This document shows, one piece after another, positions 666 through 6,077 of a stretch of DNA of 22,023 nt. This stretch comes from a virus. The stretch lies in the UHGV virus genome UHGV-0871375, one strand, 5' to 3'. Every line of letters begins with the position of its first letter. The first letter of the stretch is position 1. The translations under genes were made by a program, and so were the position numbers. Under the pieces are notes generated by a model that saw only the letters and a program-made list of their open reading frames with translations, did no database searches and was not told where the DNA came from.

Positions 666-692
666 AACCCGCCGAGTGCGGGTTTTCTTTTA
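666..692 (+). terminator. intrinsic terminator-like hairpin plus T-run
   Basis: aacccgc-cgagt-gcgggtt stem-loop followed by TTTTCTTTT, read directly from the sequence. Confidence 0.5.
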
Positions 693-734
693 TCTGAACT
701 CGCTACGGCGAGTTTTGTTTTATGGAGACAAGAA

Positions 735-1079
735 ATGTCAGATTTGGCTATGAAGGTTTTGAAATGGCAATCGACTGGCGATGTTGGCATCAGTAGCGCA
801 ACTCTTGCCTCAATCGCATGTGGACTGAAAAAGAATATCTATGGTCATAGCTTCGGTGCTCCACATGACGCAGCCGATTTCAGACGATGCGTTGCACTTG
901 TTGAGCAGATTCCAGAAATCAGAGATTCATTCGACAAGGTTGCAAAGCGCGTTCCGGCATTCAAAGGAATCCTCAACGAATGGGATTTCCTCGTTGCTCT
1001 TTTGAAGTCTGAAATGAAGATACACGGAAACAAAGCACCAGAGACTTACAGAAGAATCAGCGAGCTACGCAAGGACTAA
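735..1079 (+). CDS. hypothetical early-region protein (114 aa)
   Basis: Clean 114-codon ORF with GGAGA RBS about 8 nt upstream of the ATG; terminator-like hairpins on both sides. No family recognised. Confidence 0.65.
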   Translation: MSDLAMKVLKWQSTGDVGISSATLASIACGLKKNIYGHSFGAPHDAADFRRCVALVEQIPEIRDSFDKVAKRVPAFKGILNEWDFLVALLKSEMKIHGNKAPETYRRISELRKD

Positions 1080-1136: not shown

Positions 1137-1156
1137 CCGCATCAATGCGGTTTTTT
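1137..1156 (+). terminator. short hairpin plus T6 run upstream of xis
   Basis: ccgca-tcaa-tgcgg followed by TTTTTT at 1151-1156. Short stem, so weak. Confidence 0.35.
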
Positions 1157-1157
1157 C

Positions 1158-1200
1158 TTGCGTGTAATTGCGGAGACTTTGCGATGTACTTGACACTTCA
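1158..1200 (+). promoter_or_regulatory. pI-like promoter with CII box (TTGC-N6-TTGC)
   Basis: TTGCGTGTAATTGC at 1158-1171 matches the lambda CII recognition repeat and the surrounding sequence matches lambda pI as I recall it. Its position overlapping the xis start is the lambda arrangement that lets Int be made without Xis. Confidence 0.55.
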
Positions 1201-1402
1201 GGAGTGGAACGCTCGCCAGCGACGCCCAAGAAGCCTTGAAACAGTTCGTCGATGGGTGCGCGAATGCAGGATATTCCCTCCTCCGGTTAAGGATGGAAGA
1301 GAGTATCTGTTCCACGAATCAGCGGTAAAGGTTGACTTAAATCGACCAGTAACAGGTAGCCTTTTGAAGAGGATCAGAAATGGGAAGAAGGCGAAGTCAT
1401 GA
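1184..1402 (+). CDS. xis: excisionase Xis (72 aa), lambda-type
   Basis: Translation MYLTLQEWNARQRRPRSLETVRRWVRECRIFPPPVKDGREYLFHESAVKVDL... is essentially lambda Xis from memory. The true start is the ATG at 1184, not the upstream ATG at 1145 used by the ORF track. The 3' end overlaps int as in lambda. Confidence 0.9.
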   Translation: MYLTLQEWNARQRRPRSLETVRRWVRECRIFPPPVKDGREYLFHESAVKVDLNRPVTGSLLKRIRNGKKAKS

Positions 1403-2453
1403 GCGCCGGGATTTACCCCCTAACCTTTATATAAGAAACAATGGATATTACTGCTACAGGGACCCAAGGACGGGTAAAGAGTTCGGATTAGGCAGAGACA
1501 GGAGGATAGCAATTACTGAAACAATACAGGCCAATATTGAGTTACTCTCAGACAGCGGACGCAAATCACTGATAGACAGAATTAAAGGCGGTGACGCAAT
1601 CACTCTTCATGTGTGGCTTGACCGATATGAAAGAATCCTCACCGAAAGGGGGATCAGGCCGAAAACTCTACTCGACTACGCCAGCAAAATCAGGGCAATC
1701 CGAAGAAAATTGCCGGACAAACCGCTCACTGACATATCAACGAAAGAAGTGGCAGCAATGCTAAACACCTACGTAGCAGAAGGTAAAGCAGCTTCCGCAA
1801 AATTAATCAGGTCAACCCTTGTTGACGTTTTTCGTGAAGCAATAGCCGAGGGGCATGTGGCAACGAATCCGGTAACAGCAACCCGTACAGCAAAGTCAGA
1901 AGTAAGGCGCTCAAGGCTGACAGCTAATGAGTATGTCGAGATTTACCATGCAGCCGAACCTCTCCCTATCTGGCTAAGGCTGGCGATGGATTTGGCCGTC
2001 GTTACAGGGCAGAGAGTCGGCGATTTGTGCAGAATGAAATGGTCAGACATAAACGACAACCATCTTCACATTGAACAGAGTAAAACAGGGGCTAAACTCG
2101 CCATTCCGCTAACGCTAACGATTGACGCGCTCAATATCTCATTGGCTGATACACTACAGAAATGCAGGGAGGCCAGCAGCAGTGAAACTATAATCGCATC
2201 AAAGCATCACGATCCGCTTTCCCCGAAAACAGTATCAAAGTATTTTACAAAGGCGAGAAATGCATCTGGACTCTCATTTGATGGAAACCCGCCAACATTC
2301 CATGAACTGCGTAGCCTGTCAGCGAGGCTATACCGGAACCAGATTGGCGATAAGTTTGCTCAACGTCTTCTCGGGCATAAATCAGATTCAATGGCGGCGC
2401 GGTATAGGGACAGCCGTGGACGGGAATGGGACAAAATTGAAATCGACAAATGA
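1380..2453 (+). CDS. int: tyrosine integrase, lambda Int family (357 aa)
   Basis: The first ~47 aa (arm-binding domain) match lambda Int as recalled. Catalytic residues are present in lambda-like context (VTGQRVGDL, EQSKTG, HELRSL, LLGHKS, ARYRD). Residues ~55-170 (core-binding domain) are clearly diverged from lambda. Confidence 0.95.
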   Translation: MGRRRSHERRDLPPNLYIRNNGYYCYRDPRTGKEFGLGRDRRIAITETIQANIELLSDSGRKSLIDRIKGGDAITLHVWLDRYERILTERGIRPKTLLDYASKIRAIRRKLPDKPLTDISTKEVAAMLNTYVAEGKAASAKLIRSTLVDVFREAIAEGHVATNPVTATRTAKSEVRRSRLTANEYVEIYHAAEPLPIWLRLAMDLAVVTGQRVGDLCRMKWSDINDNHLHIEQSKTGAKLAIPLTLTIDALNISLADTLQKCREASSSETIIASKHHDPLSPKTVSKYFTKARNASGLSFDGNPPTFHELRSLSARLYRNQIGDKFAQRLLGHKSDSMAARYRDSRGREWDKIEIDK

Positions 2454-2680
2454 TTTTATTTTGACTAATAATGACCTGCCCACATTAATTCATTGATAAT
2501 AAAAGAGATTTTAAATATACAACTTATTCACCTAAAGGGTGATAAAATCATACAAATCACCTAAAAATCATATAGTTGCATGCATTAGTGGTTAAATAAC
2601 AGACTACAAAATGCTACAAAACACAACATATCCAGTCACTATGAATCAACCACTTAGATGGTATTAGTGACCTGTAACAG
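2454..2680. other. attP-like attachment region with lambda-type arm sites; core not identified
   Basis: 2600-2680 is close to the reverse complement of the lambda attP P arm, including arm-type sites CAGTCACTAT (2631-2640) and TTAGTGACCT (2664-2673). A P'-arm-like site with one change (ATAATGACCT) lies at ~2472-2481. The lambda core GCTTTTTTATACTAA is absent; a CAACTTATT core-type-like motif sits at 2520-2528. Confidence 0.55.
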
Positions 2681-2684
2681 AGCA

Positions 2685-2726
2685 TTAGCGCAAGGTGATT
2701 TTTTGTCTTCTTGCGCTAATTTTTTG
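2685..2726 (+). terminator. sib/tI-like hairpin terminator downstream of int and attP
   Basis: ttagcgcaag ... cttgcgctaa inverted repeat followed by TTTTTT; matches my memory of the lambda sib/tI retroregulation element and lies in the same relative position. Confidence 0.6.
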
Positions 2727-3020
2727 TCAACACACTGGGTTGGCTTAATTTACAACCATGCTCAGTATCTCGATAAGCGCAGAGAAATGATGCAATGGTG
2801 GGCGGACTGGCTTGATGAAAAGGTGGAGTGATCCACCTTAACTATCGAATGACACAAATCCTTGCAATCCAGTGCAAAGCTTTGTGTACCTTAGTTTTGT
2901 CTCATAGGTAATTCTGCTTTAACTGCGATGCAGGAATCTGTCACCAGACGCACGTCTCGTTGTTTTATGGTTTTCCGTTCATGATTAATATGTTAGCTTG
3001 TCAAAGTTTGTGTTTAAGAT

Positions 3021-3691
3021 ATGGTGATTGATGCAATGTTAAGCGTTCAGATGACTCCACAAGCAAAAGTTAGCTTCGAGGAGCAATGTTTTTTTCATGC
3101 TTCAGGTCTTGTTGTTGCCCCAATAAATGTTGGAGCATTCTCCTACTTTGGCGCTAATTGTATGCTCGGCGGCTTTACGATGGGTAGATTTTGTTCAGTT
3201 GCTCCAGGAGTAAAAATTGGCCTTGGCGAGCATGAAACTGGGTATTTTTCTACGCATCCTTTTTCTTTGGCTCAAAAAATGGTTTTAAAATCCCTGATGG
3301 TATAGGAATGCAACGCGACCTCTCTCAACAGAAGCATGGTATACCAAGAATTGGTCATGACGTATGGATAGGTGCAAATGCGGTTATCAGGCGAGGTATA
3401 ACTATTGGTACTGGCGCTGTTATTGCTGCTGGCGCTATTGTCACCAAAAATGTCGAGCCATATTCAATCGTAGGTGGCGTTTCTGCAAAACACCTAGGGT
3501 ACAGATTTGAGGAATCAATCATCAAAGAGTTACTGGATAGCCAATGGTGGGAATATGATTTAAGCTCATTTATTGGGATTGATACAAGGACACCGACTAC
3601 TTTTTTAGAGCAGTTTAATGCTATAAAAGATAAAAAGAAGGCATCTTATAAGAGATTTACAATTCTTCCATCCGGTGAAATTGTTGAATAG
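3021..3691 (+). pseudogene. hexapeptide-repeat (left-handed beta-helix) acetyltransferase, XAT/CatB-Vat-like, split by a frameshift
   Basis: ORF 3021..3305 carries N-terminal motifs (SFEEQ..., GRFCSVAPG, STHPFSL) and ORF 3308..3691 in another frame carries the hexapeptide core ([13 protein letters not shown]...[12 protein letters not shown]...PYSIVGG) and a C-terminal WW motif (LLDSQWWEY). The two frames join into one ~215-aa protein (...HPFS[L/F][11 protein letters not shown]...) if one nucleotide is added in the T-rich stretch at ~3263-3269. Confidence 0.6.
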
Positions 3692-3712
3692 CGCATCCCT
3701 GCGCTATATTTT
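3690..3712. terminator. shared hairpin between the convergent acetyltransferase and tailspike genes
   Basis: agcgca-tccc-tgcgct perfect 6-bp stem at 3690-3705 lies in the 19-bp gap between the two stop codons, followed by ATATTTTA on the plus strand. Confidence 0.4.
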
Positions 3713-6077
3713 AAATAAACATAAGAATAAACATCAGAAGTTCCTCGTATCTGATACCATACTGATAACCAGCAGGTTTAATAATAACCTGCCTTCCTGT
3801 GTAATATTCCTCGTCGTACCACTCTCCTGTTTCATTGTTTTTAACACTCCTAATTAATACCTCTGGAGCATAAATATCATCCCATTCATCATAACACCAG
3901 AACGCATAGTTATTAGGGTCAAGACCGTATTTTCTGAGAATATTACCTACAGTTTGTGCACCAACACCGAAATGAATCCGAGCGCCATCACTCTTGATCT
4001 TTACTGCATCTTTAAATTTAAACCTCCAGATATTTTTCTTTATTTCAAGCGCAGCAAGACGCTCTGATTCTGTTGTTTTCTCGTCAGCCTCAATACGCAA
4101 TTTCAGCTCTTCATTCGACGTGTTGATACTGCCAGTACCAGCGTATACCTGTGACCATCGAAATGCTGATGTTCCGTTTGAGTTAACATTATCAACAGTT
4201 GGTTTTATAAGGCCAGAAAAATGAGTTTCAGGTGATGTATGAAGAAGATATCCGCCAGAATCGTTTTTTGTGCGTAATTCTATAGAGTCTACAATTATTC
4301 CACTGCGACGAATAATGATAGCGTTATTACCTTGTGCACCATTGTCTTTCTGAGTGGATAGTGTGTATCCGGTACGAGTATCTATCCTCCATCTTTTGGT
4401 ATCTTCTGATGCTTCCTGATTATAAAGATAAATAGAGTTATCAGTGTAATTATTTTTGCCATCAATATTTGTAAGTGTAAATGTGTTATTTACTTTGTCA
4501 TCATTGACCATTAAATTGGCAAGAGTGTAGAGAGGAGATGCAGTATACTGGCTGCAATTAAAACCACGTGCGTTTTGTATGTTAAGTAATGTTGTGACAT
4601 TAGCATTAATGCTAATATTGGAAAAGTTTGTCGCCTGATTTGCTCCATGTATTGATGATGTTACTCCTATCTGAGCTCCAATATCCAATGTACCAAAACT
4701 TACATTAATGAAGTTGTTTGCATCGCCACCATCTATAATTATTCCTTTTTTAGTCGTCGTATAACCTGATGCACTGCTAATCTCCAATCCATTAATGGTG
4801 CACACTCTTGGTCTGATGAGTCTAATTCCTACCCATTCATTTCCGTGGTCATATCCTCCTCCTGCTCTATGTATGGCTAGTCCATTAGCAATCAAAAGAA
4901 ATCTGTTATCAAGATTAATAGGGTGAAGCTGGCTATTAATGATAACGTTTGTCCATATAGACTCACCATACGCATAGCGATTTGATTCGAACACTCTATC
5001 CTGAGCATCATAAACACCGTTTAGGGATCTAGCAACATCGACATTGGTAAGATTGAAATATGTCTTCTGCTTAATTTCAAAAAAATTGGCAACGTTATGC
5101 GTTGTGATATCACTCACACGCATGGATAAAATACCTTCTTCTGGAGCGGTGCGAATGAATCCATCAAGGAACTGTTCATTATAACTTTTGGCTATCTGAT
5201 AACATCCAACAGCATCAATGCGTTCGATTGTGAACTGCCAACTATCACCACAGTTAAAAGACCATTCCCAACCGTACTTCTGTGCGAATTCATCAGAATC
5301 AATATTTGCAGTCTCAGAACAGAAAGATAAAAATCTAAATGTTGGTTTTGGCCTTAGATGATTAAGCCCGACACCTCTTGGGGTATATATGGCATTAGCG
5401 CCATTCCCGCCTTTGCTTTTAATTGTAAGGTGACTTAAACCAAATTCAACATCATGCTTAGTTGGTGCAGCGAAAACAAATCCATCTTTTGGTGATGTGG
5501 TATTATCAAACACAATAACCGTTTTACCCTGTCCATCGCCACACATATTCACTGGTGGTATATTAACTGGTCCAATTAAATTATATGTTCCAGTTGGAAT
5601 ATATAACTTTCCACCATCTCCAAGAGCATTTGCTGCTGCAATAAATGCCACCGTATCATCGTTAACACCGTCACCTTTCGCCCCATAATGCTGTGGCGTA
5701 ATTAACAGCATACGGTCAGAAAAAATCTCTTCCCTAAGTTGATCAGGATCGTATTTTAATACATTTGGAAAATAAAACTGCTGAGTGCCATATGCATCAT
5801 ATACAGCCATAGAATGGCCTTGCACAGTTACGAATTTGGCAATCTGCCCGTTATATACCGGATATCCAGCAGCGTTAATGATGATTGGTTGCGAAACAGG
5901 AACATGAGAGCCGTCTTCGTTCTCTACATAAACCTGAATCTGGTTTTCTGGACTTACCGGGTCAGTGTCAATTTTTCCGATATAAATTTTGCCGTTGGCT
6001 ACTGCTTTAAAAGAACGCGCCATAGTGAAAAGTTGCGAAGGCATACTCACTACAACATTGGCTGTAATGTCTGTCAT
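3711..6077 (-). CDS. tailspike protein (788 aa): P22-type head-binding N-domain, pectate-lyase-like beta-helix domain, C-terminal chaperone-like domain
   Basis: First ~110 aa ([41 protein letters not shown]...VTVQGHSMA) match the P22-family tailspike head-binding domain. [11 protein letters not shown] opens a right-handed beta-helix depolymerase-like region. The C-terminus ([11 protein letters not shown]...IWRFKFKD...[10 protein letters not shown]) resembles intramolecular chaperone (peptidase S74-type) domains. GGAG RBS is 9 nt upstream. Confidence 0.9.

What the first reader, a model, noticed from the sequence alone, without database searches (positions are those of the whole stretch)
2658..2831. 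Integrase-C-terminus-like relic ORF between sib and the acetyltransferase
A 57-codon frame running through the P arm and sib hairpin ends ...NHAQYLDKRREMMQWWADWLDEKVE*. This tail resembles what I remember of the extreme C-termini of P4-family tyrosine integrases. It may be a scar of an earlier integration module, or the 3' end of a gene carried to reconstitute a target, and could hint at the phage's history or target site.
Basis: inference. Interest (0 to 1): 0.35.

Follow-up and report, generated by a model that had tools for sequence, protein, structure and literature searches.

The report
Leftover tail of a replaced integrase gene
The last 27 codons of a P4/IntS-type phage integrase gene survive as a dead fragment just after the sib terminator of this phage's lambda/HK022-type integration cassette; it is a common, already-annotated scar marking where integration modules get swapped between lambdoid phages, not a working gene.

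Summary
Window 2748-2831 is the last 27 codons plus stop of an IntS/Sf6/HK620/CUS-3-type integrase. That integrase belongs to the P4 family. The fragment is 27/27 aa identical to intact genes and 96% identical in DNA to Sf6.

Only that part is integrase-derived. The first 30 codons of the 57-codon ORF are the attP P arm, the sib hairpin and a 19-nt linker read in frame. In 52 of 55 related copies a TGA closes the frame just before the relic.

The fragment sits at the far end of a lambda-type xis-int-attP-sib cassette of HK022 specificity (attB between torS and torT). The same joint is in phage 434, Gally, JEP4 and others, in 48 IMG/VR contigs, and in 759 of 5,426 complete E. coli genomes. PGAP already flags it as a partial pseudogene. 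Copies carry premature stops, frameshifts and stop losses. Lambda has deleted the relic but keeps the hairpin after it.

Some relic-bearing prophages match intact-integrase prophages almost exactly from the first relic base rightward (1 mismatch in 2,578 nt). The relic therefore marks, and probably serves as, the right-hand homology patch for cassette exchange. The "reconstituted target gene" alternative is rejected. This is ordinary and of low novelty.

The parts
680..737 (+). Short left-hand homology patch shared with Sf6, 434, Gally and several IMG/VR loci. It marks the approximate left edge of the lambda-type cassette relative to Sf6.
   Evidence: blastn, (49-58 nt, 86-96% identity)
1145..1402 (+). 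Excisionase (xis) of the lambda-type cassette.
   Evidence: Pfam Exc PF07825, E 7e-41
1380..2453 (+). The phage's own, intact lambda/HK022-type tyrosine integrase (357 aa).
   Evidence: Pfam Arm-DNA-bind_1 + Phage_int_SAM_1 + Phage_integrase; ORF list
2447..2674 (+). attP of HK022 type. The common core is about 2523-2537 (CTTATTCACCTAAAG).
   Evidence: Alignment to HK022 X51962's annotated attP. Crossover mapped against attL/attR of the torT/torS prophage in NZ_AP021894.
2677..2727 (+). sib / tI hairpin and U-run (stem 2682-2720). This is the natural distal end of the lambda-type cassette.
   Evidence: Alignment to HK022's annotated 'sib transcription processing site', with HK022 homology stopping at about 2730; RNA fold
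2729..2747 (+). 19-nt linker of unknown origin between sib and the relic. It is 19 or 23 nt in relatives. It ends in TGA in the relic frame in 52 of 55 copies, but in TTA here.
2748..2831 (+). The relic: last 27 codons plus stop of an IntS/Sf6/HK620-type (P4-family) integrase gene, residues I359-E385. It keeps the tyrosine conserved with P4 (Y360) but no other catalytic residue.
   Evidence: PGAP pseudogene 'incomplete, missing N-terminus' at the identical position in NZ_AP021894.
2852..2887 (.). Hairpin downstream of the integrase stop codon, annotated in HK620 as the terminator of the excision transcript. It is conserved in 434, Gally, Stx phage 1717 and EC.P3, and also in lambda (27471-27508), which lacks the relic.
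2748..2938 (+). Full right-hand homology patch (relic plus 107 nt) shared with intact-integrase phage HZ41 and with Gally, JEP4 and 611R6. Beyond 2938 the acetyltransferase module has no match in the phage collection.
3021..3691 (+). Hexapeptide-repeat (CatB-related) O-acetyltransferase. It is split in the window by a 1-nt deletion at 3259/3260. Its position matches that of oac in Sf6.
3711..6077 (-). P22-type tailspike, convergent with the acetyltransferase.
   Evidence: Pfam Head_binding, E 9e-67

Best explanation
Window 2748-2831 is a dead 3' fragment: the last 27 codons plus stop of an IntS/Sf6/HK620/CUS-3-type integrase gene of the P4 family.

Shown here:
- The fragment is fused, through a 19-nt linker, to the distal end of a lambda-type xis-int-attP-sib cassette of HK022 specificity. 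The fusion point lies just after the sib/tI terminator.
- The first 358 codons of the old integrase, its promoter and its upstream attP are gone.
- The 57-codon ORF is an accident of this variant: attP, sib and linker happen to be open in the relic's frame.

Inferred:
- One old illegitimate join created the sib|linker|relic joint.
- The joint has since travelled with the lambda-type cassette.
- The retained integrase 3' end and the roughly 105 bp after it (including the int terminator hairpin) are still homologous to phages with an intact IntS-type gene. They therefore act as the right-hand crossover patch where lambda-type and IntS-type integration cassettes are exchanged by homologous recombination. 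Each exchange refreshes the right part of the relic from an intact gene.
- Copies that are not refreshed decay, and lambda has lost the relic altogether.

The relic has no coding or regulatory function of its own.
For: Identity of the fragment:
- 27/27 aa identical to intact integrases.
- DNA homology with intact-integrase phages starts exactly at 2747/2748.
- The parent gene has P4 architecture and aligns with P4 Int through the tail.

The cassette ends after sib:
- HK022 homology stops at about 2730.

The joint is shared:
- It is in 434, Gally, JEP4, Huey, mEp332, PhiR70_1, ev099, 720R6 and Salmonella phages.
- It is in 48 IMG/VR contigs and 3 GTDB species representatives.
- It is in 759 of 5,426 complete E. 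coli genomes.

Not a gene:
- TGA sits immediately before the relic in 52 of 55 copies.
- Lesions include premature stop, frameshift and stop loss.
- Distinct codon variants in the first 19 codons are 8 synonymous / 0 nonsynonymous in 72 intact genes, against 8 synonymous / 16 nonsynonymous in 54 relic copies.
- Lambda lacks the relic.
- PGAP calls it a partial pseudogene.

Exchange at the relic:
- Right flanks differ among relic loci. Several equal the right flanks of intact-integrase loci from the first relic base: L028/L069 have 1 mismatch in 2,578 nt and L025/L077 have 3 in 2,578. To the left, one member of each pair has sib plus linker and the other has the integrase body.
- A second, independent truncation of the same 3' end, starting at window 2771, flanks other integration modules in Stx phage 1717, 2851, EC.P3 and E212 and occurs in 19 IMG/VR contigs.
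Against: - The exact crossover points cannot be located, because the first ~57 nt of the relic are nearly invariant. The near-identical pairs show that the relic start is the boundary of the exchange, not that the crossover lay inside the 84 nt rather than further right.
- Only one end of each prophage pair was held, so the left crossover was not seen.
- The intact-gene comparison set is narrow (all at least 99% identical to Sf6 Int). Some 'variant tails' of relics could be alleles of more distant integrases rather than decay.
- The origin of the 19/23-nt linker is unexplained.
Confidence: 0.85

Rival explanations
1. The relic is a purely passive scar. It is a fossil of one illegitimate event and plays no part in later exchanges. 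Its spread reflects only hitch-hiking with the lambda-type cassette.
For: - The same left joint is found everywhere.
- Many copies are decayed.
- HK022 and lambda work without the relic.
Against: - The right flanks of the joint are very diverse.
- In several cases they are virtually identical to those of intact-integrase prophages, starting exactly at the first relic base. This requires recombination at or just right of the relic.
- 14 of 55 copies keep a perfect tail, and several others carry tails also seen in intact alleles.
Confidence: 0.12
2. The 57-codon ORF, or a shorter peptide within it, is a real small gene or regulatory peptide.
For: An ATG-initiated open frame of 57 codons exists in the window.
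Against: - No Pfam match.
- The start codon lies in the attP P arm with no Shine-Dalgarno-like sequence before it.
- The frame crosses the tI terminator.
- 52 of 55 homologous copies have TGA directly before the relic.
- Copies carry frameshifts and stop changes, and nonsynonymous variants are absent from intact genes.
- Lambda and HK022 lack it.
Confidence: 0.02
3. The fragment is the 3' end of a target gene, carried by the phage so that integration reconstitutes the interrupted host gene.
For: Many phages that integrate into genes or tRNAs do carry such duplicates (general knowledge).
Against: - The att core (2523-2537) is about 210 bp away, beyond sib.
- The attB is the torS-torT intergenic region (PMC6814406).
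- No tRNA or Rfam match in 2300-3100.
- The source gene is a phage integrase whose own attP lies upstream of it.
Confidence: 0.01

Closest known systems
Integrases of Sf6 (gene 16), HK620, CUS-3 and E. coli KplE1/CPS-53 IntS (argW-specific recombination module)
   Same: - The relic is the last 27 codons of this gene: 100% aa identity and 92-96% DNA identity.
- The downstream terminator hairpin is shared with HK620.
- The layout int -> O-antigen-modifying gene -> convergent tailspike is the same as in Sf6.
   Different: - 358 of 385 codons are missing.
- Also missing are the promoter, the upstream attP and the TorI-type RDF. The module is described in PMC2951348.
- The fragment is not functional.
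Satellite phage P4 integrase
   Same: The parent gene aligns with P4 Int over its full length (35% identity, E 6e-78). This includes the tail motif RR.MMQWWAD.LD and the conserved Tyr. attP lies upstream of int in both.
   Different: P4 Int is 439 aa with a longer C-terminal extension. The relic is not derived from P4 itself.
'Boundary sequences' of lambdoid phages (Clark et al. 2001, J Mol Biol 311:657; concept cited in PMC3029335)
   Same: It is a short conserved patch at the edge of a functional module, shared by phages that differ on one or both sides. Such patches are proposed foci for homologous recombination that assorts modules. The Sf6 record annotates bsq2-bsq7 but no bsq1. Sf6 is also the phage that lacks the hairpin after int.
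   Different: I could not read the paper. Whether this patch is their bsq1 is a guess from memory and annotation, not a test.
Lambda / HK022 sib-tI retroregulator
   Same: It lies immediately upstream. The relic ORF runs through it.
   Different: The relic is outside sib. HK022 has sib without the relic, and lambda has sib joined directly to the post-stop sequence.

Membership tests
P4/IntS-type tyrosine integrase (as a derived fragment) | Sequence identity of the fragment to the C-terminus of intact family members | tested here: met
   27/27 aa identical to CUS-3, HK620, HF4s and N7 Int. 96% DNA identity to Sf6. The tail motif is shared with P4 Int.
P4/IntS-type tyrosine integrase (as a functional gene) | N-terminal Arm-DNA-bind_3 (PF13356) domain and central domain | tested here: not met
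   These domains are present in intact Sf6 Int. In the window the sequence upstream of 2748 is linker, sib and attP. ORF57 has no Pfam hit.
P4/IntS-type tyrosine integrase (as a functional gene) | Complete catalytic domain (R-K-H-R-H-Y) | tested here: not met
   The relic corresponds to residues 359-385. The PF00589 match in Sf6 Int spans 199-365. Only the conserved Tyr (Y360) falls inside the relic.
P4/IntS-type tyrosine integrase (as a functional module) | attP with a tRNA (argW) core immediately upstream of int | tested here: not met
   No tRNA-like sequence in 2300-3100. The only att site is the HK022-type one.
Lambdoid 'boundary sequence' / mosaic joint | Short conserved patch flanked by unrelated sequence in different phages, at a module edge | tested here: met
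   To the left there is either sib plus linker, an integrase body, or a third type of sequence (Stx 1717, EC.P3). To the right there are many different flanks.
Lambdoid 'boundary sequence' / mosaic joint | Identity with bsq1 of Clark et al. 2001 | not testable with these tools
   The paper is not held. The Sf6 record lists bsq2-7 only.
Target-gene 3' end carried for reconstitution | Overlaps or abuts the att core and duplicates the 3' end of the host target | tested here: not met
   The core is at 2523-2537. attB is the torS-torT intergenic region (PMC6814406).
Protein-coding small ORF | Frame and start conserved in relatives, with purifying selection | tested here: not met
   TGA lies before the relic in 52 of 55 copies, and copies carry lesions. 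Codon variants are 8 synonymous / 16 nonsynonymous in relics against 8 / 0 in intact genes.

The most novel reading that the evidence does not exclude
The retained integrase 3' end plus terminator hairpin is more than a tolerated scar. It would be a selected, portable 'homology arm' that, with a short patch on the left (window 680-737), lets whole integration cassettes of unrelated specificity be swapped by homologous recombination among lambdoid and P22-like phages. The specificities seen are HK022/lambda-type, IntS/argW-type and the type found in Stx phage 1717. This would explain why at least two independent truncations of the same 84-190 bp persist in about 14% of E. coli genomes.
Probability: 0.2. 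Interest if true: 0.4.

Novelty: already known. Interest (0 to 1): 0.2.

Why it matters
The finding shows that this P22-like phage, or a recent ancestor, had an Sf6/HK620-type argW-specific integration module. That module was replaced by a lambda-type cassette that targets the torS-torT site. It gives a clean, datable example of cassette exchange at a short conserved patch.

For annotation there are three practical points:
- The 57-codon ORF should not be called as a gene.
- 2748-2831 should be marked as an integrase pseudogene fragment.
- The phage's target cannot be inferred from the fragment.

The finding opens no new question. Gene remnants at mosaic joints of lambdoid phages are a familiar phenomenon, and RefSeq already flags this one.

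Tried and rejected
- **Old attP or tRNA fragment downstream of the relic.** None was found (ARAGORN and Rfam empty). None is expected, because attP is upstream of int in Sf6, HK620 and P4.
- **Pfam scan of the 57-aa ORF.** No hit, as the fragment is too short.
- **Search for a phage with an intact IntS-type integrase followed by the same acetyltransferase.** No phage record matches window 2939-3720, so the direct 'parent' arrangement was not found.
- **Literature search for a description of this relic.** Four full-text searches found only the KplE1 intS paper and papers citing the boundary-sequence concept. The HK620 genome paper is not held.
- **MAFFT alignment of Sf6 Int with lambda-type Ints.** It aligned the wrong tyrosine (Y365). 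The BLASTP alignment with P4 Int and the Pfam coordinates point to Y360, so I relied on those.
- **The hairpin at 2852-2887 as an intrinsic terminator.** It is only weakly terminator-like, and only on the minus strand, in the simple scan. I make no functional claim beyond HK620's annotation.
- **Origin of the 19-nt linker.** No convincing similarity to the integrase body or to lambda. It remains unexplained.

Full report
**1. What is there**

The window is a P22-like (Lederbergvirus-type) temperate phage in the excised configuration. The relevant features, in order, are:
- xis at 1145-1402 (Pfam Exc).
- A 357-aa lambda-type integrase at 1380-2453 (Arm-DNA-bind_1 + Phage_integrase).
- attP and the sib/tI hairpin.
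- The ORF in question, at 2658-2831.
- A hexapeptide-repeat O-acetyltransferase at 3021-3691.
- A convergent P22-type tailspike at 3711-6077 on the minus strand (Head_binding).

Aligning the window to the HK022 int-att record maps HK022's annotated features onto it. HK022's attP corresponds to about 2447-2674 and its 'sib transcription processing site' to about 2677-2727. HK022 homology ends at about 2730.

**2. The tail is an integrase C-terminus**

tblastn of the last 34 residues against 50,697 phage records gives 100% identity over the last 27 residues (LIYNHAQYLDKRREMMQWWADWLDEKVE is query 8-34). The matches are to the annotated, full-length integrases of CUS-3, HK620, HF4s and N7, with Sf6 and IME10 matching over 26 residues.

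At the DNA level:
- Window 2748-2824 is 96.1% identical to the 3' end of Sf6 gene 16.
- Window 2748-2876 is 92.5% identical to HK620 int plus its downstream region.
- Window 2748-2864 is 90% identical to CUS-3.

In whole-window and joint-spanning searches, phages and E. coli genomes with an intact gene (annotated intS) begin to match at exactly 2747/2748.

Intact Sf6 Int has the domain order Arm-DNA-bind_3, Phage_int_M, Phage_integrase. It aligns over its full length with satellite phage P4 Int (35% identity, E 6e-78). The alignment includes the tail: VRGIYNH-AQYLDKRREMMQWWADWLD against VRAAYIHTSEHLDERRLMMQWWADYLD.

The relic corresponds to residues I359-E385. It keeps the tyrosine conserved with P4 (Y360) and nothing else of the catalytic domain.

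**3. The 57-codon ORF is not a gene**

- Only 2748-2831 is integrase-derived.
- Codons 1-30 are the P arm, the sib hairpin and a 19-nt linker (2729-2747). HK022 stops matching the window before the linker, and the integrase body shows no convincing match to it.
- Among 55 loci with the same sib|linker|relic joint, 52 have TGA in the relic frame immediately before the first relic codon. The window has TTA there, which is why its frame stays open back to an ATG in attP.
- ORF57 has no Pfam match.
- Relic copies carry premature stops (3 copies), a frameshift, an in-frame insertion with stop loss (6 copies) and stop loss in 434-type copies (3 copies).
- In the first 19 codons, 72 intact genes show 8 distinct synonymous and 0 nonsynonymous codon variants. 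The 54 relic copies show 8 synonymous and 16 nonsynonymous variants, 7 of them from one frameshifted copy.
- NCBI's PGAP annotates the identical sequence in E. coli 2018-10-1CC as a pseudogene, 'incomplete; missing N-terminus'. Its position corresponds to window 2748-2831.

**4. The joint is old and widespread**

The same joint occurs in:
- Phage 434 (siphovirus).
- The P22-like phages Gally, JEP4, Huey and 720R6.
- mEp332, PhiR70_1 and ev099.
- Several Salmonella phages.

An exact-pattern scan finds it in 48 IMG/VR contigs. It also finds it in the GTDB representatives of E. coli, S. flexneri and E. whittamii. A 110-nt query spanning the joint is covered at least 80% in 759 of 5,426 complete E. 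coli genomes.

Other states of the same region exist:
- HK022 has sib but no relic.
- Lambda has sib joined directly to the sequence that follows the integrase stop codon. It retains the hairpin (lambda 27471-27508 matches window 2853-2890 at 92%) that HK620's record annotates as the terminator of the excision transcript.
- A second, independent truncation of the same 3' end begins at window 2771 (CGATAAGCGC). It lies next to other integration modules in Stx2 phages 1717 and 2851 and in EC.P3 and E212, and it occurs in 19 IMG/VR contigs.

**5. How it got there and what it does now**

In Sf6 the order is attP, int, oac promoter, oac, then a convergent tailspike. The window has the same order from the relic onward. 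An Sf6/HK620-type module was therefore replaced by a lambda-type cassette, and the replacement ended inside the old integrase gene. This much is inferred from layout and homology.

The later behaviour of the joint is also informative. The right flanks of the 55 relic loci are highly diverse. Several are virtually identical to the right flanks of loci with an intact integrase, starting at the first relic base:
- L028 versus L069: 1 mismatch in 2,578 nt.
- L025 versus L077: 3 mismatches in 2,578 nt.

Immediately to the left, one member of each pair has sib plus linker and the other has the integrase body.

This is what homologous exchange of whole integration cassettes would produce, with the right-hand crossover in the relic/hairpin patch (2748-2938). 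It also explains why many relics remain perfect despite having no function. A short left patch (window 680-737) shared with Sf6, 434 and Gally may be the other arm.

This matches the 'boundary sequence' idea proposed for lambdoid phages by Clark et al. 2001, cited in PMC3029335. The Sf6 record annotates bsq2-bsq7 but not bsq1, and Sf6 is also the phage that lacks the post-int hairpin. The patch may therefore be their bsq1. I could not read that paper, so this is a guess.

**6. Target site**

The window's P' side (2301-2537) and P side (2523-2760) are each identical, apart from one base, to the two ends of a prophage remnant that lies between torS and torT in E. coli 2018-10-1CC. The common core is about 2523-2537.

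The core is identical to that of HK022. HK022's attB is known to lie in the torS-torT intergenic region (PMC6814406). The relic is about 210 bp from the core and on the far side of sib. No tRNA-like or Rfam element is present. The 'reconstituted target gene' idea is rejected, and the relic says nothing about the present target.

**7. Verdict**

This is a common integrase pseudogene fragment at a mosaic joint, already flagged in RefSeq. It is interesting mainly as a tidy example of cassette exchange. Novelty is low.

Noticed in passing
window 3021-3691 (indel at 3259/3260): The O-acetyltransferase is split into two ORFs (3021-3305 and 3308-3691). Compared with the intact 218-aa 'CatB-related O-acetyltransferase' of E. 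coli 2018-10-1CC, the only difference in 718 nt is one missing base in a T run. This could be a frameshift pseudogene, a phase-variable tract or a sequencing error.
   Followed up: partly
window 2939-3720: No record in the 50,697-phage collection matches the acetyltransferase module. Shared sequence with other phages ends at 2938. Matches were seen only in E. coli chromosomes.
   Followed up: partly
L137 (Stx2 phage 1717) 1944-2076; L138 (EC.P3) 2501-2638: A second, independent truncation joint of the same integrase 3' end. The relic starts 23 nt later (window 2771) next to different integration modules. It also occurs in 19 IMG/VR contigs.
   Followed up: partly
L004 (lambda NC_001416) 2472-2509 = lambda 27471-27508; window 2853-2890: Lambda has no relic, but next to sib it keeps the hairpin that follows the IntS-type integrase stop codon. 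This suggests that lambda's b-region edge descends from a relic-bearing ancestor by deletion.
   Followed up: partly
L007 (E. coli 2018-10-1CC, NZ_AP021894) 19884-27400: A prophage remnant of only about 7.5 kb lies between torT and torS. Its ends are 100% identical to the window's att-proximal regions. It is interrupted by IS1 and lacks the structural genes.
   Followed up: no
window 680-737: A 49-58-nt patch is shared with Sf6, 434, Gally, the torS-torT prophage and several IMG/VR loci, upstream of an unannotated 114-aa ORF (735-1079, no Pfam hit). It may be the left boundary of the swapped cassette.
   Followed up: partly
window 2820-2839: A perfect 8-bp inverted repeat (AAGGTGGA gtga TCCACCTT) straddles the integrase stop codon. 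It is imperfect in HK620 and in 434.
   Followed up: no
window 3711-6077 (-): Besides the P22 head-binding domain, the tailspike has a pectate-lyase-like region. It also has weak, sub-threshold hits to the endosialidase C-terminal chaperone domain (Peptidase_S74, E 0.0018).
   Followed up: no
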